35,814 nucleotides of DNA from Escherichia phage P88. The notes below the pieces were generated by a model. The model did no database searches, was not told where the DNA came from, and saw only the letters and a program-made list of their open reading frames with translations. Positions within the stretch are counted from its first letter, which is position 1. Every line of letters starts with the position of its first letter. This document shows, one piece after another, positions 108-34,736 of this stretch. A program made the position numbers and the translations under genes. The stretch lies in sequence record NC_026014.1; one strand, 5' to 3'.

Positions 108-1139
108 TTATGGGCAATATCTGGACAACTCAGCCACAGGATTAAAGCGCACAGCATCCTGTAGATAATCCGGTGCAAAATGGGCATAAGTCATCGTCTG
201 CTGAATAGTGCTATGTCCAAGTATTCTCTGCAAAGTGATGATATTCCCACCATTAATCATGAAGTGAGTGGCAAAGGTATGCCGTAAAACATGTATCGAC
301 TGCCCTTCAGGAAGATCAGGCCTCACCTTTCTGATAGCAGCTCTGACAGCTGCATAACTTGGATAAATTAAACGACCAGTGGCCTTTGTTTTAATCATGC
401 ACTCCAGTTCTGACGATATAGGTATAACGCGACGCTTCCCATTTTTGGTTTCCATAAAAATGACTTTGCCGCTAATAACATGCTCCCCCTTGATATTTGC
501 AACCTCACTCCATCTTCCACCTGTTGCCAGACACAACAAGACGGCTTTTAATTCATCACCAGATAACAACTCCAGTAATCGTGGAATATCTTCATGATAC
601 AAATAAGCCATTTCAGGCTGTTTGATATTAAGTTTTTTCACATCATGAAACGGATTAGCCCCAGAATATTCCTCTGCGTCAATTAGTTTTGTGAAGAAAC
701 CACTCATCATTGCGCAATAACGATTAACCGTGGATTGTTTTATTCCGCGATTAAGCAACAATAACCGATAATTAATTATGTTCTTACGAGTAAGTTGGTC
801 ACTGCGTGTAACATTAATACTTTCAAGATCACTAATGACCGCAGAAATACGCACTCGCTCCATCGCACCGTAAGGATGATTTTTCCCGTGGTATAGCCAC
901 CAACAATCCAGCAACTCCCTCAGCGAGCGCCGTTCTGTTGGCTTATCAACCCAATCTTTGTCGTGGTAATGCTGCAATACATGACGCTCATACAAAACAG
1001 CCTCACCACGAGTATCAAATCGCCGCCTGAATCTCTTTCCTTCTGATCCAGCTGGCCGCACGTCCACACAAAATTTGCCATTAGCGAGCTTCTTAATCGA
1101 CATAAGGAAGCCCTCCAATGAAAACATCATCTTGATCAC
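108..1139 (-). CDS. int: Tyrosine site-specific integrase (P2 Int-like)
   Basis: 343 aa; C-terminal catalytic region HVLRHTFATHFMINGGNIITLQRILGHSTIQQTMTYAHF with the R..HxxR..Y tyrosine recombinase signature; sits next to the repressor as in P2. Confidence 0.95.
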   Translation of the reverse strand: MIKMMFSLEGFLMSIKKLANGKFCVDVRPAGSEGKRFRRRFDTRGEAVLYERHVLQHYHDKDWVDKPTERRSLRELLDCWWLYHGKNHPYGAMERVRISAVISDLESINVTRSDQLTRKNIINYRLLLLNRGIKQSTVNRYCAMMSGFFTKLIDAEEYSGANPFHDVKKLNIKQPEMAYLYHEDIPRLLELLSGDELKAVLLCLATGGRWSEVANIKGEHVISGKVIFMETKNGKRRVIPISSELECMIKTKATGRLIYPSYAAVRAAIRKVRPDLPEGQSIHVLRHTFATHFMINGGNIITLQRILGHSTIQQTMTYAHFAPDYLQDAVRFNPVAELSRYCP

Positions 1140-8855: not shown

Positions 8856-9815
8856 ATGAAAATTTGTATCGACGACGGCTCCACCAACATCAAGCTGGCA
8901 TGGACTGAGAACGGCGAACGCCGCAACGCCATCAGCCCGAACAGCTTCAAGTCGGAATGGTCTGCGCCGTTCGGCGGCACGCAGCCCGCGAACTACATGC
9001 TTGATGGCGTGCGCTATGGTTTTGATCCGGTCAGCGATCGCTTTGTCCAGACGACCGACACGCAATACCAGTACAGCGATGTAAATGTCATTGCCATTCA
9101 TCACGCGCTGGTCAAATCAGGCATCACGCCACAGGAGGTGGATGTGGTTGTCACCCTGCCACTGAGCGAGTATTTCGACACAAACGCACAGCCGGACATG
9201 GCCAACATCAACCGCAAAAAAGCGAACGTTATGCGCCCGGTGGAGTACCAGAACGGCGAAGCATTCACTATCCGTAACGTGCGGGTTATGCCTGAATCCA
9301 TTCCGGCTGGCTTTAAAGCACTGGCTGACATGAGTCCGTTTGAATCCCTGCTGATTGTGGATTTAGGTGGAACCACGCTGGATGTGGCAAAGGTTCAGGG
9401 ACAACTGGCAGGTATCAGCCAGGTGTTTTGCGATCCACACGTAGGCGTTTCCCTGATGGCCGATGCAGTACTGTCGGTGATGGCCACTAACGGTATGCGT
9501 ACCAGTCACCACATCGCCAATACCATTATCGAACATCGCCATGATGAAGCCTGGCTGCGCCAGCACATCCACAATGACGCGCATTACGCCAGCCTGATGG
9601 CGGTTATTCGTGAAAAGGAAGAAACACTGAAACAACGCGTGATCCGCGCGCTGGCGGGTTTTTCGGGTTACGGGCGGGTGATGGTTGTCGGTGGCGGGGC
9701 GGAGATTGTGGCACCCGCTATCCGCGAAGCCTGCGGAGTTAATGCGACTTTCATCGCGGACGGGGTGCCACAGTTTGCTCTGGTTAATGGGCTGTACGCA
9801 ATGGACAAGGAGTAA
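8856..9815 (+). CDS. parM: ParM/StbA-like actin-type ATPase (type II partition motor)
   Basis: 319 aa; N-terminus MKICIDDGSTNIKLAW...ISPNSFKSEW co-linear with plasmid R1 ParM (MLVFIDDGSTNIKLQW...ISPNSFKREW, from memory); also QYSDVNV, IVDLGGTTLDV, VMVVGGGAE. Confidence 0.9.
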   Translation: MKICIDDGSTNIKLAWTENGERRNAISPNSFKSEWSAPFGGTQPANYMLDGVRYGFDPVSDRFVQTTDTQYQYSDVNVIAIHHALVKSGITPQEVDVVVTLPLSEYFDTNAQPDMANINRKKANVMRPVEYQNGEAFTIRNVRVMPESIPAGFKALADMSPFESLLIVDLGGTTLDVAKVQGQLAGISQVFCDPHVGVSLMADAVLSVMATNGMRTSHHIANTIIEHRHDEAWLRQHIHNDAHYASLMAVIREKEETLKQRVIRALAGFSGYGRVMVVGGGAEIVAPAIREACGVNATFIADGVPQFALVNGLYAMDKE

Positions 9816-10194: not shown

Positions 10195-10527
10195 ATGCAA
10201 CACATTGACAGAGAAAAAGCGCAGCGACTGATTGAGCGGATGGAAGCGCTGGCGAAAGAAGAAAATGTCAACATCCAAAAAATAGCTGAATGTGGCCAGA
10301 TAGTTCTTCGTCGTGAAAAAGACCTCAAACAACTGATGTCTGGCGAAACCAGCAAAACATGGACTTCAGGCGAGGAGACGATTTATTGCAGCTTCTGCAA
10401 TAAATCTCAGTACGAAGTCACAAAGGTGATTGCCGGACCGTCTGTTTACATCTGCAATGAGTGCGTGGATTTGTGCAATGAAATTATCAGGAGAGAAGTG
10501 ACAGACAAAAAGGGAAAAAACGCATGA
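10195..10527 (+). CDS. Small protein with C-terminal ClpX-type C4 zinc-binding domain
   Basis: 110 aa; C-terminal [39 protein letters not shown] has the C-x2-C-x18-C-x2-C spacing and roughly 80% identity to the E. coli ClpX N-domain as I recall it; no AAA+ module. Confidence 0.8.
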
Positions 10528-10862
10528 ACAGAAAACAAAAACAAGAGTTGAAATACTTTTTACGTAAAGAAATTGCCAGGCTTGAAGATGCAGAATCACA
10601 ATCATCAGAAATTCCGTTCGGAATGGATATCAACGACGCCCGTATGCTCCAGGCATACCGCATAGCTCAGGCTGCACTACAGGCAAAACCGTCAGATGGA
10701 CTGGTTAGAGCAGTACGATTCTATGAACTGGTAAAGCGTGAGAATCCGCCAGCCGAAACCGGAGCATGGAAAGACGCTGTTGACTGGGTACTCAAAGAGG
10801 CTTGTCAGGTTGTAAACACTGGCATCAAAGGAGACCTAGCCCAGCCTGCATCAAAGCTATAG
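10524..10862 (+). CDS. Hypothetical protein, last gene of the cargo cluster
   Basis: 112-aa ORF overlapping the previous stop; followed by a terminator. Confidence 0.55.
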
Positions 10863-17859: not shown

Positions 17860-18185
17860 CAGTGAGCACCATTCAAACAGGGATCACAGAGCAGGTTATT
17901 GCGTGGCTCTTTGACCACCTGCCAACGGTGTATGCAGCAGGCGCGGCGGTCAGCATTTCCGCGCTGATGAGTCTTTATGACGGACGAACACTGGTTCAGA
18001 CCGTAACGGGATCGCTGGCGTGCGGCGTTCTTGCCATGGCCGTGGCCGGGTCGTTGCGCTTCTTCGGGTTTCCTGAAGATGCCGTGACGTTTATCGGCGC
18101 ATCAATCGGTTTTATGGGTGCAGAGAAAGCACGCGACAAGGTTATTGCGGCCTTTAATCGCAGGGTGAAGGAGAAGGACGAATGA
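17847..18185 (+). CDS. Y: Holin (P2 gpY-like)
   Basis: 112 aa with hydrophobic helices and charged C-terminus, immediately before the endolysin. Confidence 0.7.
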   Translation: MGGVAVSTIQTGITEQVIAWLFDHLPTVYAAGAAVSISALMSLYDGRTLVQTVTGSLACGVLAMAVAGSLRFFGFPEDAVTFIGASIGFMGAEKARDKVIAAFNRRVKEKDE

Positions 18186-22561: not shown

Positions 22562-24856
22562 ATGAGTACCACAACACGAAAATTTAAAACCGTTATCACC
22601 GATACGGGTGCAAAAAAATTAGCTCAGGCAGCCGCGCCAGATGGTAAGCCTGTCCGCCTGACTCATATGGCAGTGGGCGACGGTGGCGGCACGTTGCCCA
22701 CACCAGACAGTAAGCAGACCCGTCTGGTGCATGAGGTGTGGCGACATACTGTTAATCGCGTCATCCTGGACGCAACACATCAGAACCGCATTATTGCGGA
22801 GCTGGTTATTCCTCCTGAAACGGGCGGATTCTGGATCCGGGAAATTGGTGTATTTGATGAGCACGGCGATTTAATCGCGGTGGGAAATACTGCCGAAAGT
22901 TACAAGCCAGCCGTTGCCGAAGGGTCCGGTCGTGCACAAACATTTCGCACCATTCTGACCGTATCCAGCACTGCCACCGTGGCGCTTACCGTGGATAACA
23001 CCATGGTGATGGCCACAGTGGATTACGTGGATGACAAACTGAAAGAGCATGAACAGTCACGACGTCACCCGGACGCCTCGCTGACCGCAAAAGGCTTTGT
23101 TCAACTCAGTAGCGCCACTAACAGCGTGTCTGAAACGCAGGCTGCAACGCCGAAAGCAGTAAAGGCCGCGTATGATCTTGCTAACGGTAAATATACTGCG
23201 CAGGATGCCAGCACGACGCGAAAAGGCCTTGTCCAGCTCAGTAGCGCCACCAACAGCACGTCTGAAACGCAGGCTGCAACGCCGAAAGCAGTAAAGGCCG
23301 CGTATGACCTTGCTAACGCAAAATATACCGCTCAGGACGCTACGACGGCACAAAAAGGGATAGTCCAGCTCAGTAGTGCCACCAACAGCACGTCTGAAAC
23401 ACTGGCCGCGACATCGAAAGCGGTTAAGGCGGTAATGGATGAAACGAACAAGAAAGCGCCCTTAAACAGTCCTGCGTTGACCGGAACGCCAACAACGCCA
23501 ACTGCGCGACAGGGAACGAATAATACCCAAATCGCAAGCACGGCTTTCGTTATGGCTGCGATTGCCGCCCTTGTAGATTCGTCACCTGACGCACTGAATA
23601 CGCTGAACGAGTTAGCGGCGGCGCTGGGAAACGACCCGAATTTTGCGACCACCATGACTAACGCGCTTGCGGGTAAGCAACCGAAAGATGCCACCCTGAC
23701 GGCGCTGGCCGGGCTTGCTACTGCGGCAGACAAGTTTCCGTATTTTACGGGGAATGATGTCGCCAGCCTGGCAACCCTGACAAAAGTCGGGCGGGATATT
23801 CTTGCGAAATCGACCGTTGCTGCCGTTATCGAATACCTCGGTTTACAGGAAACGGTAAACAGGGCTGGTAACGCCGTGCAAAAAAATGGCGATACCTTAT
23901 CCGGTGGGCTTACTTTTGAAAACGACTCAATCCTTGCCTGGATTCGAAATACTGACTGGGCAAAGATTGGTTTTAAAAATGATGCCGATAGCGATACTGA
24001 TTCATACATGTGGTTTGAAACAGGCGACAACGGCAATGAATATTTCAAATGGAGAAGCAAACAAAGCACCACAACAAAAGACCTGATGAATCTTAAATGG
24101 GATGCTTTGTCTGTTCTTGTTAAAGCCCTTTTCAGCAGTGAAGTAAAAATATCGACAGTCAATGCACTGAGGATATTTAATTCATCTTTTGGTGCCATTT
24201 TTCGCCGTTCTGAAGAATGCCTGCATATCATCCCTACACGAGAGAATGAGGGGGAAAATGGCGATATAGGGCCGCTACGCCCCTTTACGCTTAATCTCAG
24301 AACTGGTCGCATAAATATGGGGCATGGTCTGGATGTTACAGGAGATATAACAACTAACGCATGGGTGTACGCAAACCGCCTTGCAATTAACAGCAGCACA
24401 GGCATGTGGATTCATATGCGTGACCAGAATGTTATTTTTGGACGTAATGCGGTATCCACTGATGGTGCTCAGGCTTTGCTCCGTCAGGACCATGCCGACC
24501 GCAAATTTATGATTGGCGGTCTGGGAAATAAGCAATTTGGCATCTACATGATTAATAACTCAAGGACAGCCAATGGCACCGATGGTCAGGCGTACATGGA
24601 CAATAACGGTAACTGGCTTTGCGGTGCGCAAATTATTCCCGGAAATTATGGCAATTTTGACTCACGCTATGTGAGAGATGTCCGACTTGGCACACGTGTT
24701 GTTCAATTGATGGCGCGTGGAGGGCGTTATGAAATAGCCGGACACGCACTTACCGGATTAAGGATTATTGGTGAAGTTGATGGCGATGATGAAGCTATCT
24801 TCAGGCCGATACAAAAATACATCAATGGCATATGGTATAACGTCGCACAGGTGTAA
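22562..24856 (+). CDS. H: Tail fibre protein H; C-terminal third lies in an invertible segment
   Basis: 764 aa; three tandem 44-aa fibre repeats; crossover site at residues 422-430 (VIEYLGLQE); C-terminal ...FRPIQKYINGIWYNVAQV. Confidence 0.93.
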   Translation: MSTTTRKFKTVITDTGAKKLAQAAAPDGKPVRLTHMAVGDGGGTLPTPDSKQTRLVHEVWRHTVNRVILDATHQNRIIAELVIPPETGGFWIREIGVFDEHGDLIAVGNTAESYKPAVAEGSGRAQTFRTILTVSSTATVALTVDNTMVMATVDYVDDKLKEHEQSRRHPDASLTAKGFVQLSSATNSVSETQAATPKAVKAAYDLANGKYTAQDASTTRKGLVQLSSATNSTSETQAATPKAVKAAYDLANAKYTAQDATTAQKGIVQLSSATNSTSETLAATSKAVKAVMDETNKKAPLNSPALTGTPTTPTARQGTNNTQIASTAFVMAAIAALVDSSPDALNTLNELAAALGNDPNFATTMTNALAGKQPKDATLTALAGLATAADKFPYFTGNDVASLATLTKVGRDILAKSTVAAVIEYLGLQETVNRAGNAVQKNGDTLSGGLTFENDSILAWIRNTDWAKIGFKNDADSDTDSYMWFETGDNGNEYFKWRSKQSTTTKDLMNLKWDALSVLVKALFSSEVKISTVNALRIFNSSFGAIFRRSEECLHIIPTRENEGENGDIGPLRPFTLNLRTGRINMGHGLDVTGDITTNAWVYANRLAINSSTGMWIHMRDQNVIFGRNAVSTDGAQALLRQDHADRKFMIGGLGNKQFGIYMINNSRTANGTDGQAYMDNNGNWLCGAQIIPGNYGNFDSRYVRDVRLGTRVVQLMARGGRYEIAGHALTGLRIIGEVDGDDEAIFRPIQKYINGIWYNVAQV
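23090..23440 (+). repeat. Tandem in-frame repeat, about 2.7 copies of 132 bp (44 aa) inside H
   Basis: Repeat unit KG(F/L/I)VQLSSATNS(V/T)SETQAATPKAVKAAYDLAN..YTAQDA occurs at residues 177, 221 and 265. Confidence 0.75.
23826..23851. repeat. Left crossover site of the invertible segment (gix/hix/cix-like, 26 bp)
   Basis: TTATCGAATACCTCGGTTTACAGGAA; near-exact inverted repeat of the site at 26897..26922 (23 of 26 after reverse-complementing). Confidence 0.75.
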
Positions 24857-24859
24857 ATT

Positions 24860-25387
24860 ATGCAGCATTTAAAAAATATTAAGTCTGGAAATCCAAAAAC
24901 AAAAGAACAATATCAGCTAACAAAGAATTTTGATGTTATCTGGTTATGGTCCGAAGACGGAAAAAACTGGTATGAGGAAGTGAAAAACTTTCAGCCAGAC
25001 ACAATAAAGATTGTTTACGATGCAAATAATATTATTGTCGCCATCACCAAAGATGCCTCCACGCTTAACCCTGAAGGTTATAGCGTCGTTGAGGTTCCTG
25101 ATATTACAGCTAATCGTCGTGCTGATGATTCCGGTAAGTGGATGTTTAAGGACGGAGCTGTGGTTAAACGGATTTATACGGCAGACGAGCAACAACAACA
25201 GGCCGAATCACAAAAGGCCGCGTTACTTTCCGAAGCAGAAAACGTTATTCAGCCACTGGAACGCGCTGTCAGGCTGAATATGGCGACGGATGAGGAACGC
25301 GCACGACTGGAGTCATGGGAACGCTATAGTGTTCTGGTCAGCCGTGTGGATACGGCAAATCCTGAATGGCCACAAAAGCCTGAATAA
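24860..25387 (+). CDS. G: Tail fibre assembly chaperone (P2 gpG-like)
   Basis: 175 aa immediately after H; N-terminal [24 protein letters not shown]... of the Tfa family. Confidence 0.9.
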
Positions 25388-25415
25388 AAATTAAGGCCCG
25401 ATAGCGGGCCTTGTT

Positions 25416-25949
25416 TCATTCTGGTTGTTCTGGAAACGTTACTGGCAGGCTGGAGGTGTCTGTGGATTCGACCTTCTGCGCATAGAGCATCCACTCGGTT
25501 AATTTTTGTTTATTCTCGTCGGGAATGATACCCAGCCGTAGCTGTGAGTCCCATAGCTGGGTTTTATCCCTGACAAGTTGCAACAGGCTTTGCTTTTCAT
25601 TCTCTGCCTGCTGCCTCTGTTCCTCCTCGGTATAAGTTCGCTTTATCACTACGCCATCTTTGAACATCCATTTACCCGAAATATCAGCCCGGCGATTTGC
25701 TGTAATATCAGGTAATTCAACGACGCTTGCGCCTTCCGGATTAATTGCTGAAACATCCTTTTCAATACAAATAATAACGCCGTTATGGTCATAGACCATT
25801 TTCAAAGTGTCTGGCTGGAAATTCTTTTGTTCCTCATACCAGTTTTTTCCATCATCTGAATAAAGCCATTTGATGTTAAATTGCTTTGTTAGCTGGTATT
25901 GCTCTTTTGTTTTAGGGTTGCCAGCAGTAATGTTTTTTAAGTGCATCAT
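25416..25949 (-). CDS. Alternative tail fibre assembly chaperone (G')
   Basis: 177 aa; N-terminal half almost identical to G, divergent C-terminal half; convergent with G. Confidence 0.9.
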   Translation of the reverse strand: MMHLKNITAGNPKTKEQYQLTKQFNIKWLYSDDGKNWYEEQKNFQPDTLKMVYDHNGVIICIEKDVSAINPEGASVVELPDITANRRADISGKWMFKDGVVIKRTYTEEEQRQQAENEKQSLLQLVRDKTQLWDSQLRLGIIPDENKQKLTEWMLYAQKVESTDTSSLPVTFPEQPE

Positions 25950-25951
25950 CG

Positions 25952-26914
25952 TTAAATACTCCCCGCGTTATACCACGTCCCATTAATGCAATACTGAATT
26001 GGCCTTGCCTGAGTTGTATCAATTAATTCATCACGGTTTCCGTTAACTGAACCCGTAACGACATAACCTGACCTGTCAGACCAGCCGGGGCCATTCCATG
26101 TCTGAACAGATGACAGACCGCCAAGGCGAATACCTGTAATAAACCTTGAGTTACATTCTGCCTGCGTGTATGCACCAACATCTCCCGCAGAGGGTTTGCG
26201 GGTCGTGGTGTAAAACTCTGACCAGTCAGCCTCAAATCCATAACCATCACGCGCTGAACGATAAAAAATACCGCCGTTCCTGTAATTCACGCGGAACTGT
26301 ACAGCAGGGCAGCTCCCCGTATTCATATTGAAGTGGAGGATTAATGTCGATGCGCCACCAATGTTTGCGTTATAGACCCCGCTATTCCAGTTCCAGCCAA
26401 CAGCTTTATCATTTCCGACAGTGCTTCCTGTTTGCCCTAAAGCAAATGCAGGTTGTTGATTTTTCGTGTTGTAGTCTCGTCGCCAGCCAGGAGCATAAGC
26501 ATCACCATGATTAATATAAGTGAATTGAGCGTTAGTAATTCCGCCACCGCTGGACGTGCTCGGCGTGGTAACGCGTATGGTCATTGCGCCGCGAGTGCCA
26601 ATAACTTCCACCACAGCACCTGCAAGACAAATATTTCCGCAACCTGTATCTGTAATGACCTTATTATTTGCATAAGCCCATGAGCCTTTGCACATCCAGT
26701 AAGGATGGTTAAATGCTCCCTGACTCTCCAGCCACGAAATAAATTGCGCGGTTGTCCAGACCTGACTATCGCCACCAATATTCAGCCATGCGCTATATGC
26801 GCGGCAGGCCCCAATATTTTTGGTGAAGGTATCTTTTCCCGGAATATCTGCGCCGTTCTGGTTTTTCTGTAATGCGCCAGAAGCCTGATTTACCGTTTCC
26901 TGTAAACCGAGGTT
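25952..26914 (-). other. Alternative tail-fibre C-terminal segment (Hv'), start-less, fused to H after inversion
   Basis: Minus-strand frame is open from the right crossover site; my translation reads NLGLQETVNQASGALQKNQNG... across the site, matching H at YLGLQETVNRAGNAVQKNG; ends ...RPIQYCINGTWYNAGSI like H. Confidence 0.75.
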
Positions 26915-26922
26915 TTAGATAA
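26897..26922. repeat. Right crossover site of the invertible segment (gix/hix/cix-like, 26 bp)
   Basis: TTCCTGTAAACCGAGGTTTTAGATAA, about 55 bp upstream of the invertase start; close to the Gin/Hin site consensus as I recall it. Confidence 0.75.
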
Positions 26923-26976
26923 TGGCCGTTTCTGACCTGCATGGCATGATTTACGCTTTTGGACGGGAGATTCAGC

Positions 26977-27564
26977 GTGCTGATTGGCTATGTAAGGGTA
27001 TCAACAAATGACCAGAATACAGACCTGCAACGAAACGCTCTTGTTTGTGCAGGATGTGAACAAATATTTGAAGATAAATTAAGCGGGACAAAGACAGACC
27101 GACCGGGATTAAAACGCGCTTTAAAGCGCCTTCAAAAAGGTGACACGCTGGTTGTCTGGAAACTGGATCGCCTCGGGCGAAGCATGAAACATCTGATTTC
27201 TCTCGTCGGGGAACTACGGGAGCGAGGGATTAATTTTCGCAGTCTGACCGACAGCATAGATACATCTTCTCCAATGGGGCGTTTTTTCTTCCACGTGATG
27301 GGTGCCCTGGCTGAAATGGAACGTGAATTAATTGTTGAACGTACACTGGCCGGACTGGCAGCAGCGCGCGCACGGGGGCGCACAGGCGGACGTCGCCCGA
27401 AGCTGACAAAAGAACAGCATGAGCAAATAGCAAGGCTGATTAAAAACGGTCACGACAGAAAACAACTGGCAATAATTTACGGCATTGGTACATCGACGAT
27501 TTATCGTTACCACCCCGCAGGAGAATCAAGCGGAACAATAGAGAAGAGTCAGAAAACAAAATAA
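26977..27564 (+). CDS. Serine DNA invertase (Gin/Cin/Pin/Hin family)
   Basis: From the GTG start the product begins MLIGYVRVSTNDQNTDLQRNAL... (catalytic Ser in VRVSTNDQ), near-identical to the Gin/Pin N-terminus as I recall; C-terminal HTH. The track ORF starts at a TTG at 26959. Confidence 0.9.
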   Translation: MLIGYVRVSTNDQNTDLQRNALVCAGCEQIFEDKLSGTKTDRPGLKRALKRLQKGDTLVVWKLDRLGRSMKHLISLVGELRERGINFRSLTDSIDTSSPMGRFFFHVMGALAEMERELIVERTLAGLAAARARGRTGGRRPKLTKEQHEQIARLIKNGHDRKQLAIIYGIGTSTIYRYHPAGESSGTIEKSQKTK

Positions 27565-28100: not shown

Positions 28101-30944
28101 TCAATCTTTATCGTAAAAACTGCCACGCCCGGCACGGGCGCGCCGTTCCATTTCTGCCCTGACCATTTCACCGACCAGTTTCGCCAGTTCGCGGGGATTC
28201 TGTGTAACAACGTTATGCAGATGAACATGAATTTCACCGCCAAATCCGGAGGCAACAGGCTCCCGGTTACGGGAAGTTGCAGGAACTGATGCCACTGGCG
28301 ATCGTATGGCCTCTGCCACCGGGCGAGAGCTGGCCGCAACAACAGGGACCAGCGCCGGAGGCAGCGGAGCCGGAACCACAGGTGTGATATTAATTGCGGG
28401 GGCAGGCTTACTGACCTGCGCAATCTTCCGCTCCTGCCACTCCCCACGAACGGCAAGTGCGCGGGGCAGGTTCTTAAAGACAATATCGCCAGGGCCAATA
28501 CGTTTTTTCGTCTCATCAACCAGCTTACCTGTGTTATCAGCAATTTTGCTGAGTCTGCGTAGCGTACCGGTATTGCTGTCTGTGAGCGGTTTGTTGTCTT
28601 TGGGTTTATCACCTCCGGTGCCATTGCCATTTTCCACAGGCTTCGGCGGATTGATTTTCGCCAGGTCCCCCTGAAGCAAGGCAACCTTGTCCTGAAGAAT
28701 GGCCGCACGCTGTGCGTCTTCGATTTTCTTGCGCGCCCTTTCCGCTTCATCCGGAAGCACACCGAGCTTTTCAAGTATCCACGCCAGCGTATCCAGCAAC
28801 ATTTTTGCAGGTGTCAGAACAAGTTGTAACGCACCGCCAAGAACGTTACCGAATATCTCGCCAGCACTGGTACATTTATCCAGCGTTTCCTTGCTGGACT
28901 CCATCGGTGACAGCAGCGATTTAAACCAGTTAAACACCTGGCTGATCCCACTCCCGATTGCGTCAAAAACAGGACCAAACCGTTCAAAGGTTTCGCGCAA
29001 CGGGGTCAGCCTTTCCATAATCCCGCTGAACACCCCGGCAAAAAATGCCCTGATGGGATCCCAGTATTTCCAGATAAGAACGGCAGCTCCGGCAAGCGCA
29101 GCCACGATAAGACCAACCGGACTGAACAACGCCCCGATAGCGCCTCCCAGTAAAGAAACGGAACCCGTCACCATTCCCCACAGCGCAGGCAACACCCTGA
29201 CGACATTCATTGACCGGGTAAGAATGTCAAAACCAAGACGCAGGGTGGCCAGCTTCCCGTAAAGCACCCCAATAACCAGCGACAACGAGCCAATCGTTGC
29301 AGTCATTGCCAGCAGTGCACCGCCTGCAATCAGTAGCTGGCGCGTCAGTGCGGGATGGGCCTGCGCCAGCGCCGTCACCTTTGATACCACACGCGTGAGC
29401 CACTGCGTGACAGAACGCAGCGGACCGTCAATCAGATCTGCAATGCGGATGCGCAACCCTTCCCATGCACTGCTGAGTGATTTCAGATCGCCGTCAAGGT
29501 TGTTGGCCATAACCTTTGCCGTGCGTTCAGCCTCACCGCGCGCGCCTTCAAGTTCTTTTCTCAGTTTGGGTAAGGAGCCGTCACCTGCCGCATCAACGAG
29601 GGCCATAAATGATGTGAAAGCCTCTTCTCCGGCAATGTCCTTAAAGAACGATACCCGGTCAACTTCCCCGTATTTGCGGGTAGCTTTATAAAGGTCAGCC
29701 AGCACATCCTCCATCGGGCGCATTTTGCCCCCGGCATCCGAGACAGACACGCCAAGCTCTTTCAGCGCCTCTGCTGCCGCCTTTGGCGGTGATGCCAGAC
29801 GAGCCAGGCTGGCACGCATTGCCGTCCCGGCATCACTCCCTCTGATACCCATATTCGCCAGCACGCCCGCCATCGCTGCGGCCTGCTCCAGCGATATTCC
29901 CAGCTTACCCGCCACCGGACCTGCATATTTCATGGTTTCGCCCAGCGCGCGAAGGTCAGTGTTAGTACGGGTAAACGCTGCTGTAAGCGTGTCACCGACC
30001 CGGTCCATCTGGTCAGCGGAGAGGCCGAACTGCGTCAGGATATTTGAGCCAATATCCGCCGTCTCGCCAAGGTCCATACCGCCAGCCGTTGCCATGCTCA
30101 GCACGCCCGGAAGCGCAGCCTGAATGGCCTGCGGTGTGAAGCCAGCCATTGCAAGAAATGCCTGCCCACTGGCGGCATCGCCTGCGGTGAACTGCGTTTC
30201 AGAGCCAAGTTTTAACGCCTGCTCACGCAGCGCCTTAAACTGCGGGCTGTTTTTGTCGATTCGCGTCAGTGCCTGAACGCGGGACATCTCTTTCCCGAAC
30301 CCGATCGCAGGCTGCAAAAAACGCCCGGCAGCATAGCCGCCCGCCGCTGCCGCACCAATTGCCAGCGCACCACCTGTTTTCAGTTTTCCCGCTGTTTCCT
30401 GCGCGCGCGAATACCGCTCACGCGCCCGCGTTACACGCGCAAGCGCCTGCCGTTCGCGTTCAAGCTGGTTGTTGTATTGTTCGGTGCGTCTGATGGCCTG
30501 CTGGATGGTGTTATCGCTGCCTGTCAGGGAAATGCCGTGGCGTTTCAGCTCTCCGCCAAGCTCCCGCATTTTCTGAATTTCCCGTGTGCGCGATTCATTC
30601 AGGCGTTCAAGCCGGGTGCTTAACTGCTGCATCAGCTTTTGTTGTTTTTCGCTGAGCACTGTACCCGTGCGTTGTAACTGATTAAGGGCGTTAAGCTGGC
30701 GTCGTGCTTTCACGATACCCGCATCCGCTTTACTGACAGCGTCGCGGGCGCGCTCAAATGAACGCGCCTGACGCTCGAGATTTTTGATCGCCCCCTGCGT
30801 TCGCTGGATGGAGTCACCAAACTGCCCCATCAGGCGGCGTGCGTTTTCGGCAGGTCGGGTCAGCCTGTCAACGGCGCTGAAAGCGACCCGGATATCAAGA
30901 GTCTTCATTGTCTGCATTCCCGCTGCGAAGTGCCGCCCGCTCAC
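28101..30944 (-). CDS. T: Tail tape measure protein (P2 gpT-like)
   Basis: 947 aa; N-terminal coiled-coil, central Gly/Ala-rich hydrophobic segments, downstream of E/E'. Confidence 0.93.
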   Translation of the reverse strand: MSGRHFAAGMQTMKTLDIRVAFSAVDRLTRPAENARRLMGQFGDSIQRTQGAIKNLERQARSFERARDAVSKADAGIVKARRQLNALNQLQRTGTVLSEKQQKLMQQLSTRLERLNESRTREIQKMRELGGELKRHGISLTGSDNTIQQAIRRTEQYNNQLERERQALARVTRARERYSRAQETAGKLKTGGALAIGAAAAGGYAAGRFLQPAIGFGKEMSRVQALTRIDKNSPQFKALREQALKLGSETQFTAGDAASGQAFLAMAGFTPQAIQAALPGVLSMATAGGMDLGETADIGSNILTQFGLSADQMDRVGDTLTAAFTRTNTDLRALGETMKYAGPVAGKLGISLEQAAAMAGVLANMGIRGSDAGTAMRASLARLASPPKAAAEALKELGVSVSDAGGKMRPMEDVLADLYKATRKYGEVDRVSFFKDIAGEEAFTSFMALVDAAGDGSLPKLRKELEGARGEAERTAKVMANNLDGDLKSLSSAWEGLRIRIADLIDGPLRSVTQWLTRVVSKVTALAQAHPALTRQLLIAGGALLAMTATIGSLSLVIGVLYGKLATLRLGFDILTRSMNVVRVLPALWGMVTGSVSLLGGAIGALFSPVGLIVAALAGAAVLIWKYWDPIRAFFAGVFSGIMERLTPLRETFERFGPVFDAIGSGISQVFNWFKSLLSPMESSKETLDKCTSAGEIFGNVLGGALQLVLTPAKMLLDTLAWILEKLGVLPDEAERARKKIEDAQRAAILQDKVALLQGDLAKINPPKPVENGNGTGGDKPKDNKPLTDSNTGTLRRLSKIADNTGKLVDETKKRIGPGDIVFKNLPRALAVRGEWQERKIAQVSKPAPAINITPVVPAPLPPALVPVVAASSRPVAEAIRSPVASVPATSRNREPVASGFGGEIHVHLHNVVTQNPRELAKLVGEMVRAEMERRARAGRGSFYDKD

Positions 30945-31424
30945 GCCAGCTAACCACTTCGCCGGGCGTCATCATGAAGATTTCGGCGGGCGACCAGTTA
31001 AAAATAACGGCAATATCTGCCACAAAGTCTTCTATGTGCTCAAAGCACACAACCGTGATCAGGCTTCCGTCGCCTGTTCGTTCTTCCCGCCAGAGTCCGC
31101 ACCGCTCAAAAAATTTACGGCAACCACACATAACTGAATAAAGTCACGGGATGCCATTTTTTTGATCGTCACTTCATCCAGTCGCGGTGATGTCACGCGT
31201 GACAGCAGCGTAAACATGGATTCCGCTTTCAGACTCAGCACATCAGACAGCGACAAATCTCGCAGAGATCCAGCCTGCTCAATAGCCCCGGTGATCTCCA
31301 CATACGTGATTTTTTCGCCGCTTCGCTCAATTGGTTGGGTAAGTTTTACGCCACGCTCACTGGTTTCTTTCACAGTGTCAGTAACTACCGTGTTTTCGGT
31401 ATCGATGTTTTTCGTCTCTTTCAT
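30895..31424 (-). CDS. E+E' frameshift product (programmed -1 frameshift)
   Basis: The E' ORF (30895..31131) is in the -1 frame relative to E and overlaps the T start; shift expected at ATC-AAA-AAA-ATG as in P2 E/E' and lambda G/GT. Confidence 0.6.
31059..31424 (-). CDS. E: Tail assembly chaperone E (P2 gpE-like)
   Basis: 121 aa between tube gene and tape measure; slippery A7 run in the mRNA (plus-strand T7 at about 31157..31163) near its 3' end. Confidence 0.85.
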   Translation of the reverse strand: MKETKNIDTENTVVTDTVKETSERGVKLTQPIERSGEKITYVEITGAIEQAGSLRDLSLSDVLSLKAESMFTLLSRVTSPRLDEVTIKKMASRDFIQLCVVAVNFLSGADSGGKNEQATEA

Positions 31425-31478
31425 CAGGAAACTCCTTTCAGTCAGAGGCGACGCACTGCGCCGCCTGCATATTACTTA

Positions 31479-31991
31479 TCAGCCAAGCCCAAGCGCGGAA
31501 CGGATGCGATCGGGCACAATGTCCTTGCCGTCCTTCCGGTAAATGAAGTTCAGCAAGTCAATCTCCCACAACGGGCGATCGTTAACACTCAGCTTGTAGT
31601 AGGTGTTTTTAATGGCATAAGTGTGTGATGTGGCTTCGCCCTGTTTGGCTTCCCCCATATCAATTTCCGTCACACGTCCGCGCATTTCGACTTCATACAG
31701 GTCGCTTTCTGCATCGGTGTAGTATTCACCCGCAAAACGCAGCAGTGTGCCGTCAATCGTGCCGCCATACTTAAGGAACAGCTCACGAACTGCGCCCCCC
31801 ATGACAAAGCTCGCATCAAGCGCGGAGTCGTCCAGGCCGAGATCAATACTTACCGCCCCCATCATGCCACCACCCCGGTAGCTGTCGGTTTTGCGCGTCA
31901 GCTTAGGCAGAGTGACGGACGTCACCTTACCCACTTCGTTTTCACCATCCACAAACAGCGTAAAAAAGCGAAGATGTTTTGGCACAGCCAT
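31479..31991 (-). CDS. FII: Tail tube protein (P2 gpFII-like)
   Basis: 170 aa directly after the sheath gene (TGATG overlap). Confidence 0.92.
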   Translation of the reverse strand: MAVPKHLRFFTLFVDGENEVGKVTSVTLPKLTRKTDSYRGGGMMGAVSIDLGLDDSALDASFVMGGAVRELFLKYGGTIDGTLLRFAGEYYTDAESDLYEVEMRGRVTEIDMGEAKQGEATSHTYAIKNTYYKLSVNDRPLWEIDLLNFIYRKDGKDIVPDRIRSALGLG

Positions 31992-33175
31992 CAGGCACCT
32001 CCCAGCACCGCAAATGCGGGTTCAAAGTATTCATCAGTAAACGTCTGGTAAAGCTCCATGTCTTCCAGTGGCGGAACGGGCGTATATTTGTAGCGAATAC
32101 GCACACGTCCCTGACGTAAATCCGTGGTGCTGTTATCCACCACGTCATACCAGCACTCCGCGCCAATCAGTTTCCCGGCAGTAACCAGTGAATCCAGTTT
32201 TGCCCTGATGGCACTGATAACATCCTTCACGTTCGCAGGCGTCAGTGGACTGTCGATGGTTTCAAACTGCGCTTCCGCAATTGAATCAGCCAGCACCTGT
32301 GCGGTTCGGGTATACACCTCAAAGATGTAGGCGTTCGTTTCCGGTGTGCGGTTGCCCCAGAAGCGGAACCCGTTGCGACGAATAATGGTCGTGATTTCTT
32401 TGTTGTTGAGGCTGTTGGCATCGCTGTCTTCGGCCTGCAACGACCAGAACACATGCCTCGACATCCCCAGCACATTTTTAACCGGAACGTTGGACAGTGA
32501 TTTGTGCCATCCCTGCTCATGGTCAATGTACGCACGAAGGCCGCACGCATAGGCAGACGCGGGGAACGTTTCGTTTTTGCCACTTTTCGGGTTGTAGGCG
32601 ATGAAGTCCGGCCATAAGAGCATCACCTCACGTTCGTTGAATTTCTGGCGGTAGGTAATCGCCTCAGCCATCGTGTTACAGCCGTGACATGAGGCATACA
32701 CAAACGCGCGCAGTTTACCTGCAATCACGCACAGGGATTTTGTTACAGCCTCCGTGTCCAGCTCCGGCGCGGCCAGAATACGCGGACGGTATCCGATGCT
32801 TTCATCCTGCTCTGCAACAAGCAGCGCATACATCCCCGTATAGCTGCCGTCATCCTCAGAACCACCGATAACCAGTTGATCCTGCGTCTTTCCGTCTTCT
32901 TCTTTGTGTTCAGCCACGCGAACGACGATCACCTTTGTGCTCACCTGGTCTGCGATGGCCTTAAGCGCACGATAAAGCGTCCCCGTTGTCCCGCATTTTC
33001 CCAGCACGTCATTGACGCGGGTCAGCAGTGTGGGCTTGTTCAGCGGGAACAGCTTCGCGTCCGCATCATCCGCCGTTGCCACGATACCGATAACGCTGGA
33101 ATCAACATCGTTAATCGCTGTTACCAGGTCGGTATTTTCCGTAACACGGGCACCATGAAAACGAGTTTCACTCAT
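31991..33175 (-). CDS. FI: Contractile tail sheath protein (P2 gpFI-like)
   Basis: 394 aa, P2 FI-like size; first gene of the sheath-tube-chaperone-tape measure operon. Confidence 0.93.
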   Translation of the reverse strand: MSETRFHGARVTENTDLVTAINDVDSSVIGIVATADDADAKLFPLNKPTLLTRVNDVLGKCGTTGTLYRALKAIADQVSTKVIVVRVAEHKEEDGKTQDQLVIGGSEDDGSYTGMYALLVAEQDESIGYRPRILAAPELDTEAVTKSLCVIAGKLRAFVYASCHGCNTMAEAITYRQKFNEREVMLLWPDFIAYNPKSGKNETFPASAYACGLRAYIDHEQGWHKSLSNVPVKNVLGMSRHVFWSLQAEDSDANSLNNKEITTIIRRNGFRFWGNRTPETNAYIFEVYTRTAQVLADSIAEAQFETIDSPLTPANVKDVISAIRAKLDSLVTAGKLIGAECWYDVVDNSTTDLRQGRVRIRYKYTPVPPLEDMELYQTFTDEYFEPAFAVLGGA

Positions 33176-33332
33176 AGCTTCAGCCCCTTGTATCCGTTAA
33201 ATGATTCGGCAACAATCATCACCCACCACGCGCGTAATCTCACCCCTGCGCCGTTCTCCCGCCACGGCGACAACAAAAAGCAGTAACCCCCTCCGCACGC
33301 ACATGCGACCATGCCGCACAGGGAGGGAACAG
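33176..33332. promoter_or_regulatory. Divergent intergenic region between FI and D (expected late promoters)
   Basis: 157-bp gap between divergently transcribed FI and D; D has a GGGAGGGA SD. No promoter consensus verified. Confidence 0.3.
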
Positions 33333-34433
33333 ATGACCGATACCACCATGCAATTGCTCAGTCAGGGCACAGACCCCGTGAAAATGCCGGATTTTGATAT
33401 TCTCGCGGAGGGTAAAACGCTGTCAGGCGTGGCAGAGCGCCTGATGAGCCTGTCACTGACCGACAACCGGGGATTTGAAGCGGACCAGCTCACCATCACG
33501 CTGGATGATGCGGATGGTCAGTTGCAGCTACCGCCACGGGGCGCGCGCCTGACGGTTCTCATTGGCTGGAAAGGAGAACCGCTGACAGAAAAAGGCACTT
33601 ACATTGTTGATGAAATCGCTCACGAAGGACCGCCGGACAGGCTGACTGTTTCAGCCAGAAGCGCAGATTTTCGGGATGAATTTAACGTTAAACGTGAGGT
33701 GTCCTGGCATGATGTGACCGTTGAGCGTGTGGTATCCGCCATCGCTCATCGGTATGGTCTGAAACCGCAAATCAGCGAAATGCTGATGGATATCGAAATC
33801 GACCACGCCGACCAGACCGAAGAAAGCGACATGTCCTTCCTTACGCGCATGGCGGAAATGCTGGGCGCAATCACCACGGTAAAAAGCGGTAATCTGTTAT
33901 TCATCATGCCCGGTGGTGGCGTGAACGCACAGGGCCAGCCGTTGCCATCGTTCGCCATCACACGCAGCAGCGGCGATCGCCATCAGTTCCGCATTGCTGA
34001 CCGCGAGGCGTATACGGGTGTACGCGCCTACTGGCTTGATCTTAATTACGGGAAAAAGAAAAAAGTCAGCGTGAAACGCCGCAAACCGAAAAAAGAGAAA
34101 AGCAGCAGCCGTGAAGGTGACTATATGGAAGGTGCGGAAGGCAACGTGTTTGTGTTACGCAAGACTTATCAGAACGAGCAGGCAGCAAGACGCGCAGCGG
34201 CGGCAAAGTGGCAGCAGCTACAACGCGGAGCCGCATCATTCTCCATCACACTGGCACGTGGACGCGCAGAACTCTACCCCGAAATGCATGGCACGGTAAC
34301 AGGATTTAAAAGCGAGATTGATAATCAGGACTGGATTATTGCAAAAGCCGAGCACACCATTGATAACAGTGGCTTTACCACACAGCTTGAGCTTGAGGCA
34401 AAAATCCCGGAATGGATAGCGGAAACAGAGTGA
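33333..34433 (+). CDS. D: Tail protein D (P2 gpD-like)
   Basis: 366 aa from the internal ATG with strong SD (track ORF starts at 33201); sits before ogr as in P2. Confidence 0.88.
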   Translation: MTDTTMQLLSQGTDPVKMPDFDILAEGKTLSGVAERLMSLSLTDNRGFEADQLTITLDDADGQLQLPPRGARLTVLIGWKGEPLTEKGTYIVDEIAHEGPPDRLTVSARSADFRDEFNVKREVSWHDVTVERVVSAIAHRYGLKPQISEMLMDIEIDHADQTEESDMSFLTRMAEMLGAITTVKSGNLLFIMPGGGVNAQGQPLPSFAITRSSGDRHQFRIADREAYTGVRAYWLDLNYGKKKKVSVKRRKPKKEKSSSREGDYMEGAEGNVFVLRKTYQNEQAARRAAAAKWQQLQRGAASFSITLARGRAELYPEMHGTVTGFKSEIDNQDWIIAKAEHTIDNSGFTTQLELEAKIPEWIAETE

Positions 34434-34475: not shown

Positions 34476-34736
34476 ATGTTCCGTTGTCCGCTTTGTGGCG
34501 CATCTGCCCGTATCCGCACCAGTCGTCCGGAAAATGATTCAAACACCGTGCGGCAAAAGTATTACCAGTGTAACAACCTGGAATGCGGCGTATGCTTCTC
34601 AACACTGGAAGCTTTCCATAAATTTACATCGAAACACGCCTCCGGCGTTCACTCATCAGAAGGTATCCCATGGCATGATCTGCCAGCTTCACACAGGGGA
34701 AACAATCAGATGAGTTTGCCTTTACCTCAGAATTAA
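34476..34736 (+). CDS. ogr: Late transcription activator Ogr/Delta family (zinc finger)
   Basis: N-terminus MFRCPLCGASARIRTSR...YYQCNNLECGVCF matches P2 Ogr (MFHCPLCQHAAHARTSR...YHQCQNVNC...) with the C-x2-C ... C-x4-C pattern. Confidence 0.88.
   Translation: MFRCPLCGASARIRTSRPENDSNTVRQKYYQCNNLECGVCFSTLEAFHKFTSKHASGVHSSEGIPWHDLPASHRGNNQMSLPLPQN

What the first reader, a model, noticed from the sequence alone, without database searches (positions are those of the whole stretch)
30895..31424. Programmed -1 frameshift in the tail chaperone pair E/E'
An A7 slippery run in the mRNA sits near the 3' end of E, and the overlapping E' frame is exactly -1 and extends past the T start, as in P2 E/E' and lambda G/GT. 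This is expected biology but confirms the tail module is intact.
Basis: partly seen in the sequence, partly recalled or inferred. Interest (0 to 1): 0.22.

Follow-up and report, generated by a model that had tools for sequence, protein, structure and literature searches.

The report
P2-type tail chaperone frameshift, site corrected

Summary
The window carries a complete P2-like (Peduoviridae, Gemsvirus-type) E. coli prophage. On the minus strand, between the tail tube gene FII and the tape-measure gene T, lie E (31424..31059, 121 aa) and an ORF in exactly the -1 frame (open 31143..30895). That ORF runs 54 codons past the E stop and overlaps the T start by 14 nt.

The slippery site is not. The A7 run (31163..31157) is read as AAA AAA A, out of phase for an X_XXY_YYZ heptamer. 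A -1 shift there meets TGA (31146..31144) after five codons, so it cannot give E+E'.

The likely site is T_TTT_TTG (31113..31107), overlapped one codon upstream by A_AAT_TTT (31116..31110). T_TTT_TTG is the published P2 slip sequence and sits in the homologous F-L alignment column. Of 57 distinct homologous regions, 53 keep an in-phase canonical heptamer inside the open -1 window. Protein conservation switches from the 0 to the -1 frame at the heptamer. The extension carries Pfam Phage_P2_GpE (E=6e-12). No E'-frame start codon has a ribosome-binding site.

I found no stimulatory RNA structure, which matches reports for P2. The predicted product is E+E', 176 aa and 19.7 kDa. This is known biology and of low interest.

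The parts
31059..31424 (-). Gene E: tail assembly chaperone, 121 aa, 13.2 kDa, the product of standard decoding. Stop TGA at 31061..31059.
   Evidence: ORF list and translation. BLASTP to P2 gpE 2e-10 with 31% identity. phrog_103 at 7e-34. Pfam Phage_TAC_7 only 15.5 bits, below the 25-bit cutoff, although 9 of 10 aligned homologues pass E<=0.01. Molecular weight.
31432..31437 (-). Shine-Dalgarno AAGGAG, 7 nt upstream of the E ATG. It is the only good ribosome-binding site serving E and E+E'.
   Evidence: Anti-SD duplex energy is -8.2 kcal/mol, against a background mean of -3.35. Sequence.
31157..31163 (-). It encodes Lys-Lys plus the A of the Met codon (AAA AAA A). It is not phased as a heptamer, and a -1 shift here is a dead end.
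   Evidence: Codon table. It is not listed among in-phase heptamers. It is not conserved in L117.
31144..31146 (-). TGA stop in the -1 frame. It closes the -1 frame downstream of A7 and marks the 5' edge of the 82-nt stretch in which a -1 shift is productive.
31107..31113 (-). T_TTT_TTG slippery heptamer (0 frame AAT TTT TTG, Asn-Phe-Leu). This is the proposed main -1 slip site and is identical to the P2 site.
   Evidence: P2 annotation and sequence. Literature PMC3091744 and PMC3931495. Invariant in 79 of 79 close relatives. Present in 34 of 57 distinct homologous regions.
31110..31116 (-). A_AAT_TTT, a second in-phase canonical heptamer one codon upstream. With the one above it forms a 10-nt compound site, A_AAT_TTT_TTG. 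It is the only canonical heptamer left in the Xuanwuvirus relatives.
   Evidence: L003 and L105-L116 have AAATTTT followed by ATG. Alignment.
30895..31107 (-). E' extension, read in the -1 frame from G31107 (GAG...) to TGA 30897..30895: 70 codons. The whole product E+E' is join(31424..31107, 31107..30895), 176 aa, 19.7 kDa, with junction ...VAVNFL|ERCGLW...
   Evidence: phrog_1756 at 2e-39 covers fusion residues 103-174, so it spans the junction. The -1 frame is more conserved than the 0 frame directly after the heptamer.
30916..31023 (-). Pfam PF06528 Phage_P2_GpE domain, fusion residues 135-170.
   Evidence: 45.2 bits against a cutoff of 23, E=6.3e-12. All 10 aligned homologues hit it.
28101..30908 (-). 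Gene T, tail tape measure. The ATG at 30908 is the start annotated in the 99.4% identical phage 500465-2. It overlaps the end of E' by 14 nt and lies in the same frame as E.
   Evidence: PF10145 at 3.6e-58.
31479..31991 (-). Gene FII, tail tube, immediately upstream of E.
   Evidence: PF04985 at 7.5e-47.

Best explanation
E and E' are the P2-type tail assembly chaperone pair of a P2-like prophage.

**Initiation (shown).** Ribosomes start at the single well-equipped start, AAGGAG then ATG at 31424. Most decode E through to TGA 31061..31059, giving a 121-aa protein.

**Slip (inferred).** A minority slip back one nucleotide on U_UUU_UUG (31113..31107). At that point peptidyl-tRNA-Phe sits on UUU and aminoacyl-tRNA-Leu on UUG, and both re-pair on UUU UUU. 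A few may slip one codon earlier on A_AAU_UUU. Decoding then continues in the -1 frame from GAG (31107) for 70 codons to TGA 30897..30895.

**Product (inferred).** The result is E+E', 176 aa, which shares residues 1-106 with E and carries a C-terminal GpE domain. No stimulatory hairpin, pseudoknot or upstream Shine-Dalgarno-like element is detectable. The heptamer alone probably sets a low, fixed E : E+E' ratio, as reported for P2 and lambda G/GT.

**Function (inferred from lambda G/GT and P2 genetics, not tested here).** The shared E part coats the tape-measure protein T. The E' part of the rare fusion recruits the tube protein to start tail polymerisation.

It is simply a Lys-Lys coding stretch.
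For: **Geometry**
- The frame is exactly -1. The -1 frame is open only from 31143. There are two in-phase canonical heptamers within the 82-nt productive stretch.

**Homology**
- Gene order is FI, FII, E, E', T, U.
- E matches P2 gpE by BLASTP at 2e-10.
- PF06528 hits the extension at 6e-12.
- The window's protein and P2 E+E' match the same PHROGs. phrog_1756 spans the junction.

**Same site as P2**
- P2 is annotated with a -1 frameshift at TTTTTTG.
- PMC3091744 and PMC3931495 state that P2 shifts at TTTTTTG/T6G and that no downstream structure is needed.
- In the protein alignment, the F-L encoded by the heptamer falls in the same column in P2, 186, RSA1, SEN5, the Klebsiella phages and this window.

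**Comparative evidence**
- 53 of 57 distinct homologous regions have an in-phase canonical heptamer inside the open -1 window: T_TTT_TTG 34, C_CCT_TTC 14, A_AAT_TTT alone 3, T_TTT_TTA 2.
- So a slippery heptamer is kept at this spot even where its sequence changes.
- Two of the four exceptions were inspected and carry single-base indels inside E'. The other two were not examined.
- The background rate of in-phase heptamers is 0.4% per codon.

**Frame switch in conservation**
- In the 12 codons upstream of the heptamer, mean pairwise identity is 0.43 in the 0 frame and 0.26 in the -1 frame, and the -1 frame usually contains stops.
- In the 12 codons downstream, it is 0.30 in the 0 frame and 0.39 in the -1 frame.

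**No independent start for E'**
- ATG 31131 and GTG 31050 have anti-SD energies of +0.6 and -3.5 kcal/mol. The background mean is -3.35, and the E start scores -8.2.
Against: - Nothing here shows the fusion protein. All evidence is sequence-based and comparative.
- Public annotations of near-identical loci (phage 500465-2, PGAP E. coli genomes) call E' as a separate 51-aa GTG-initiated gene without slippage.
- No stimulatory RNA element was found, so efficiency cannot be estimated and could be very low.
- E itself does not reach the Pfam Phage_TAC_7 threshold: 15.5 bits against 25.
- The relative use of the two overlapping heptamers is unknown.
- The homologue survey is not phylogenetically independent.
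- The primary P2 paper (Christie et al. 2002) could not be read. I relied on two later papers that describe it.
Confidence: 0.9

Rival explanations
1. The -1 frameshift takes place on the A7 run (31163..31157).
For: - A7 is a slip-prone homopolymer decoded by tRNA-Lys.
- It lies inside E.
- It is conserved in the Gemsvirus and Xuanwuvirus relatives.
Against: - A -1 shift there reads QKNGIP and then TGA 31146..31144, so it cannot reach E'.
- The run is phased AAA AAA A, not X_XXY_YYZ.
- In P88_4B11 the equivalent run itself supplies the -1 frame stop, TAA AAA AAT.
- It is absent from L117 (AAG CGC) and from P2, 186 and the Klebsiella homologues, which all keep the T-run site.
Confidence: 0.02
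2. E' is translated on its own from an internal start (GTG 31050, as in public annotations, or ATG 31131). No frameshift is involved.
For: - RefSeq, PGAP and phage records annotate a separate 51-aa 'GpE family phage tail protein' or 'tail protein'.
- An ATG and a GTG exist in the -1 frame.
Against: - Neither start has a ribosome-binding site above background.
- The -1 frame peptide upstream of GTG 31050 (ERCGLWREERTGDG...) is conserved across clades at 45-55% identity, with a W..ER.GDG motif. It is covered by phrog_1756 from fusion residue 103.
- A slippery heptamer is maintained in phase in 53 of 57 regions.
- According to PMC3931495, P2 E' lacks a ribosome-binding site and is made as an extension of E.
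Confidence: 0.05
3. The shift occurs mainly at the upstream heptamer A_AAT_TTT (31116..31110) rather than at T_TTT_TTG. The junction would be ...NFF|ER and the fusion 177 aa.
For: - It is in phase and canonical.
- In the Xuanwuvirus clade it is the only canonical heptamer left, because TTG has become ATG. So it is presumably sufficient there.
Against: - Re-pairing of the P-site tRNA-Asn on AAA is poorer than tRNA-Phe on UUU (general knowledge of -1 frameshifting).
- T_TTT_TTG is the site reported for P2 and the most widespread in the family, in 34 of 57 regions.
Confidence: 0.15
4. The fusion arises by transcriptional slippage: RNA polymerase adds one U on the T6 run. Ribosomal frameshifting is not involved.
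For: - The site is a homopolymeric run.
- Transcriptional slippage gives fusion proteins in some bacterial and phage genes (reviewed in PMC5009743).
Against: - Six T is short for efficient slippage, which generally needs about 8-9 or more (general knowledge).
- Clades with C_CCT_TTC or A_AAT_TTT keep the heptamer phase but have only 3-4 identical bases in a row. That fits tandem tRNA slippage and not polymerase stuttering.
Confidence: 0.03

Closest known systems
Bacteriophage P2 E / E+E' programmed -1 frameshift (Christie et al. 2002, J Bacteriol 184:6522, as described in PMC3091744 and PMC3931495; GenBank AF063097 annotation)
   Same: - Position between FII and T.
- E' in the -1 frame, overlapping the T start.
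- The identical slippery heptamer T_TTT_TTG, in phase at the homologous Phe-Leu codons.
- No downstream hairpin.
- E' carries the PF06528 GpE domain.
- E and E' fall in the same PHROGs as P2.
   Different: - E is longer: 121 aa against 91 aa, with an extra N-terminal stretch.
- Identity is only 31-32%.
- The heptamer lies 45 nt before the E stop, against 18 nt in P2, so the dual-coded stretch is longer.
- A second in-phase heptamer, A_AAT_TTT, abuts the site.
- P2 and 186 have an AAGGTG Shine-Dalgarno-like motif shortly upstream of the heptamer. It is absent here.
- Gene D is divergently oriented in this phage.
Phage lambda G / GT tail assembly chaperone frameshift (Levin et al. 1993; Xu, Hendrix and Duda 2004, 2013, 2014, cited in PMC5009743)
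   Same: - The same logic and position: two chaperones from one start between the major tail gene and the tape-measure gene.
[quoted passage not shown]
- A fixed low ratio of long to short product.
   Different: - No sequence similarity.
- Lambda slips on G_GGA_AAG.
- Lambda has a non-contractile siphovirus tail.
- The functional roles (G binds the tape measure, T binds the tube protein) are demonstrated for lambda and only inferred here.
Escherichia phage 500465-2 (Gemsvirus) and Xuanwuvirus P88_4B11 prophage-type phages
   Same: - 99.4% and 86.7% nucleotide identity over this locus, with the same gene order.
- 100% identical copies exist in complete E. coli genomes. The locus is found in 1374 of 5426 genomes.
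   Different: - Their records annotate E' as a separate gene, with no slippage.
- Xuanwuvirus has lost T_TTT_TTG (TTG to ATG) and retains only A_AAT_TTT.

Membership tests
P2-type E / E+E' tail assembly chaperone frameshift pair | Located between the tail tube gene (FII) and the tape-measure gene (T), on the same strand | tested here: met
   FII at 31479..31991 (PF04985, 7.5e-47). T at 28101..30908 (PF10145, 3.6e-58). E and E' lie between them on the minus strand.
P2-type E / E+E' tail assembly chaperone frameshift pair | The second ORF is in the -1 frame of the first, overlaps its 3' end and extends well beyond its stop | tested here: met
   The productive overlap is 82 nt, with 54 codons beyond the E stop.
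P2-type E / E+E' tail assembly chaperone frameshift pair | An in-phase slippery heptamer X_XXY_YYZ inside the overlap (T_TTT_TTG in P2) | tested here: met
T_TTT_TTG at 31113..31107 and A_AAT_TTT at 31116..31110.
P2-type E / E+E' tail assembly chaperone frameshift pair | The extension belongs to Pfam PF06528 (Phage_P2_GpE) | tested here: met
   45.2 bits against a cutoff of 23, E=6.3e-12, fusion residues 135-170.
P2-type E / E+E' tail assembly chaperone frameshift pair | The upstream protein belongs to the gpE chaperone family (Pfam PF10109 Phage_TAC_7) | tested here: inconclusive
   The direct Pfam score is 15.5 bits, below the 25-bit cutoff. However, BLASTP to P2 gpE gives 2e-10, phrog_103 is shared with P2 at 7e-34, and 9 of 10 aligned homologues hit PF10109 at E<=0.01.
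P2-type E / E+E' tail assembly chaperone frameshift pair | The slip site is positionally homologous to that of P2 | tested here: met
   The Phe-Leu encoded by the heptamer aligns in one column across P2, 186, RSA1, SEN5, the Klebsiella phages and the window.
P2-type E / E+E' tail assembly chaperone frameshift pair | The fusion protein is actually produced, and both products are needed for tail assembly | not testable with these tools
   This needs protein detection and genetics. It is reported for P2 only, through secondary citations.
-1 frameshift sites with a cis-acting stimulator (dnaX or IS element type: upstream Shine-Dalgarno-like element and/or downstream hairpin or pseudoknot) | A stable or conserved structure 5-9 nt downstream of the heptamer, or a Shine-Dalgarno-like element upstream | tested here: not met
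   Downstream folds have z-scores of +0.27 and +1.2 to -0.8. No common structure appears in seven homologues. The anti-SD energy upstream of the site is -2.2 kcal/mol, which is background level. There are no Rfam hits.

The most novel reading that the evidence does not exclude
The site may be a 10-nt compound slippery sequence, A_AAT_TTT_TTG, giving the ribosome two consecutive chances to shift. Across Peduoviridae the functional heptamer would then hop between adjacent codons: T_TTT_TTG, then A_AAT_TTT in Xuanwuvirus, then C_CCT_TTC in Reipivirus-like phages, with compound C_CCT_TTT_TTG forms as intermediates. Compound sites would be the evolutionary bridge that lets the slip sequence change without ever losing E+E'. 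If so, the two junction variants (NFL|ER and NFF|ER) should both be produced from this prophage.
Probability: 0.3. Interest if true: 0.25.

Novelty: already known. Interest (0 to 1): 0.1.

Why it matters
Scientifically this matters little. The E/E+E' frameshift is a textbook feature of P2-like phages, and identical copies of this locus sit in about a quarter of complete E. coli genomes.

The practical value is in annotation.
- The correct slip site is T_TTT_TTG at 31113..31107, not the A7 run.
- The correct product is a 176-aa fusion, join(31424..31107, 31107..30895).
- Public records of near-identical loci list E' as a free-standing 51-aa gene.

The comparative survey also gives a clear example of selection keeping an in-phase slippery heptamer while its sequence drifts between neighbouring codons.

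Tried and rejected
- **A7 as slip site.** Rejected. The -1 frame closes at TGA 31146..31144 and the run is out of phase.
- **Downstream stimulatory structure.** The 87 nt after the heptamer fold no better than shuffles, z=+0.27. Folds of 40, 60 and 90 nt in the window and six homologues show no consistent structure.
- **Upstream Shine-Dalgarno-like stimulator.** None here, -2.2 kcal/mol. P2 and 186 do have AAGGTG upstream.
- **Rfam scan of 30700..31600 at E<=1.** No hits.
- **Independent initiation of E'.** There is no ribosome-binding site at ATG 31131 or GTG 31050.
- **Promoter scan of the region.** None found.
- **PDB sequence search with the family profile.** No meaningful homologue, best E about 0.9. 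I did not pursue structure prediction, because it would not bear on the frameshift.
- **NCBIfam.** No model hits E or the fusion.
- **First IMG/VR scan with E alone.** It returned only relatives at 97% identity or more. These are uninformative beyond showing the heptamer invariant in 79 of 79. A second scan with the family alignment gave the diverse set.
- **Christie et al. 2002 (PMC135442).** Not held in the library.
Full report
**What the window is**

The 701 nt around the finding are 99.4% identical to Escherichia phage 500465-2 (Peduoviridae, Gemsvirus). They are about 86-87% identical to Xuanwuvirus P88_4B11 and relatives. Copies 100% identical occur in complete E. coli chromosomes, and the locus is present in 1374 of 5426 complete E. 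coli genomes.

The window as a whole is a full P2-like prophage. It carries integrase, gpA replication protein, head genes, tail fibre genes, gpU, T, E/E', FII, FI, gpD and Ogr.

**Anatomy of the locus**

All relevant genes are on the minus strand.
- **E** runs 31424..31059 (121 aa). It is preceded by AAGGAG, with an anti-SD duplex energy of -8.2 kcal/mol.
- **FII**, the tube gene (PF04985), ends at 31479.
- **T**, the tape-measure gene (PF10145), starts at ATG 30908 in the annotation of the near-identical phage.
- **Frames.** E codons begin at positions with p mod 3 = 2. The second ORF has p mod 3 = 0, which on the minus strand is exactly the -1 frame.
- **The -1 frame** is open from 31143 to TGA 30897..30895. 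That is 82 nt of overlap with E, then 54 codons beyond the E stop. Its end lies 14 nt inside T.

**The A7 run is not the slip site**

- The mRNA does have A7 at 31163..31157, but it is read as ATC AAA AAA ATG. No X_XXY_YYZ heptamer is phased there.
- A ribosome shifting -1 on it would read Q K N G I P and stop at TGA 31146..31144. It cannot reach E'.
- The run lies 96 nt before the E stop.
- It is replaced by AAG CGC in relative L117, which keeps the T-run site.
- It has no counterpart in P2, 186 or the Klebsiella homologues.
- In P88_4B11 the run itself provides the -1 frame stop, TAA AAA AAT.

**The real site**

E contains only two in-phase canonical heptamers: A_AAT_TTT (31116..31110) and T_TTT_TTG (31113..31107). 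They overlap to form A_AAT_TTT_TTG, and both lie inside the open -1 stretch, 45-48 nt before the E stop.

T_TTT_TTG is the P2 slip sequence.
- GenBank AF063097 annotates E+E' as a two-piece CDS with a -1 frameshift site right after GGTTTTTTG.
- PMC3931495 says that P2 E' lacks a ribosome-binding site and is an extension of E after a shift at T6G.

A shift at T_TTT_TTG here gives a 176-aa, 19.7-kDa fusion with junction ...VAVNFL|ERCGLW....

**Is it more than chance?**

- In 39 greedy gene calls of this window, in-phase canonical heptamers occur at 41 of 10,249 codon positions (0.4%). About 0.11 is expected in the 27 codons of the overlap.
- TTTTTTG occurs 26 times on the two strands of the window. 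That gives roughly a 1% chance of one in phase in this stretch.
- Of the 41 heptamers, those feeding a long -1 extension beyond the 0-frame stop fall at only three places. One is the two at this site. One is in a spurious antisense ORF (18065..18071). One is a trio at an ATGA-coupled gene junction (10509..10521) that looks like the downstream gene's ribosome-binding site.

**Homology**

- The fusion hits Pfam PF06528 Phage_P2_GpE at 45.2 bits, against a cutoff of 23, over residues 135-170.
- It also hits phrog_103 for the E part and phrog_1756 and phrog_6416 for the E' part. phrog_1756 spans the junction, residues 103-174. P2 E+E' hits the same three PHROGs.
- E aligns to P2 gpE by BLASTP at 2e-10 with 31% identity.
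- E alone misses the Pfam Phage_TAC_7 cutoff, at 15.5 bits against 25. Nine of ten aligned homologues hit that family at E<=0.01.
- In the alignment of ten reconstructed fusions, the Phe-Leu encoded by the heptamer occupies one column.

**Comparative test**

In eleven annotated phages, the in-phase heptamer inside the open -1 window is as follows:

| Heptamer | Phages |
|---|---|
| T_TTT_TTG | P2, 186, RSA1, SEN5, two Klebsiella phages, 500465-2, Chuche |
| A_AAT_TTT only | Xuanwuvirus P88_4B11 |
| C_CCT_TTC | ST16-OXA48phi5.4 |
| G_GGA_AAG | a Mannheimia phage |

A profile-based scan of IMG/VR gave 57 distinct overlap regions, and 53 had an in-phase canonical heptamer in the open window:

| Heptamer | Regions |
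|---|---|
| T_TTT_TTG (6 of them with C_CCT_TTT abutting, 2 with A_AAT_TTT abutting) | 34 |
| C_CCT_TTC | 14 |
| A_AAT_TTT alone | 3 |
| T_TTT_TTA | 2 |

- Two of the four exceptions were inspected and carry single-base indels inside E'. The other two were not examined.
- Among 79 close relatives the site is invariant.
- Mean pairwise protein identity switches frame at the heptamer. In the 12 codons upstream it is 0.43 in the 0 frame and 0.26 in the -1 frame, and the -1 frame usually contains stops. In the 12 codons downstream it is 0.30 and 0.39.
- These sequences are related to one another, so the counts are not independent events. Even so, the heptamer is maintained under sequence change, which is what selection for frameshifting predicts.

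**Stimulators**

- The 87 nt after the heptamer fold no better than shuffles, z=+0.27.
- Folds of 40-90 nt in seven homologues show no shared structure.
- Rfam finds nothing.
- There is no Shine-Dalgarno-like element upstream of the site, -2.2 kcal/mol. P2 and 186 have AAGGTG there.
- The heptamer alone is therefore the likely determinant, as reported for P2.

**Rivals**

- **Independent initiation of E'.** Public records annotate it from GTG 31050. This is disfavoured. Neither ATG 31131 nor GTG 31050 has a ribosome-binding site above background. The -1 frame peptide upstream of GTG 31050 is conserved, with a W..ER.GDG motif.
- **Transcriptional slippage.** This is disfavoured because clades with C_CCT_TTC or A_AAT_TTT keep the phase without a long homopolymer.
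- **Which overlapping heptamer is used.** This cannot be settled from sequence.

**Mechanism and function**

The steps shown here are the geometry, the homology, the conserved in-phase heptamer and the absence of an alternative start. The following steps are inferred:
- tandem slippage of tRNA-Phe and tRNA-Leu on U_UUU_UUG;
- a low, fixed ratio of E+E' to E;
- E coating the tape measure while E' recruits the tube protein, by analogy with lambda G/GT (PMC5009743).

**Verdict**

The finding is real and ordinary. Novelty is nil, beyond correcting the site and noting that public annotations of this very common prophage omit the fusion.

Noticed in passing
window 23822..23886 and 26862..26926; genes 22562..27564: This looks like an invertible tail-fibre segment of the Mu G / P1 C type. 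It comprises fibre gene H (22562..24856, +), Caudo_TAP (24860..25387, +), an oppositely oriented second Caudo_TAP (25416..25949, -), an alternative fibre C-terminus (25952..26695, -), and a serine invertase (26959..27564, +; Resolvase at 1.5e-50). A 65-nt inverted repeat at 78% identity flanks the segment.
   Followed up: partly
window 8856..9815 (+): A full-length ParM/StbA actin-like plasmid segregation ATPase (PF06406 at 1.8e-82, PF21523 at 1.3e-68) lies just downstream of the gpA replication gene. This is unusual cargo for an integrating P2-like prophage that also carries an integrase at 108..1139.
   Followed up: no
window 10195..10862 (+), heptamers at 10509..10521: A small protein with a ClpX-type C4 zinc finger (10195..10527, PF06689 at 8e-18) is ATGA-coupled to a 112-aa ORF with no family hit. 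Three in-phase heptamers (A_AAG_GGA, G_GGA_AAA, A_AAA_AAC) sit in the last four codons of the first ORF and open onto the second. This is most likely just the ribosome-binding site of the downstream gene, but formally it is a second candidate -1 site.
   Followed up: partly
window 31444..31464 (-), between FII and E: A 9-bp GC-rich hairpin without a U tract (-18 kcal/mol, z=-1.7) lies in the 54-nt FII-E spacer. Phage 186 has an annotated partial terminator (tI) at the same place, and a Mannheimia phage has a rho-independent terminator there. It may lower expression of E, T, U relative to sheath and tube.
   Followed up: partly
window about 31000 (inside E'), compared with L003 (Xuanwuvirus P88_4B11): There is a mosaic joint. 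Identity to P88_4B11 is 78-93% through E and the overlap region. From about 31000 it jumps to 97-100%, through the end of E' and at least 480 nt into T. The C-terminal GpE domain therefore travels with the N-terminus of the tape measure.
   Followed up: partly
L093 and L092 (IMG/VR contigs), E' region: Two close relatives carry single-base indels inside E'. L093 has CCC shortened to CC at the position equivalent to window 30966..30968. L092 has one extra base near the position equivalent to 31030. Either would break the extension. They are probably homopolymer sequencing errors or decaying prophages.
   Followed up: partly
window 33201..34433 (+) against 31991..33175 (-): Gene D (baseplate hub, PF05954) is divergently oriented from the FI-FII-E-T-U block, unlike the co-linear FETUD operon of P2. 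Ogr (34476..34736) follows D.
   Followed up: no
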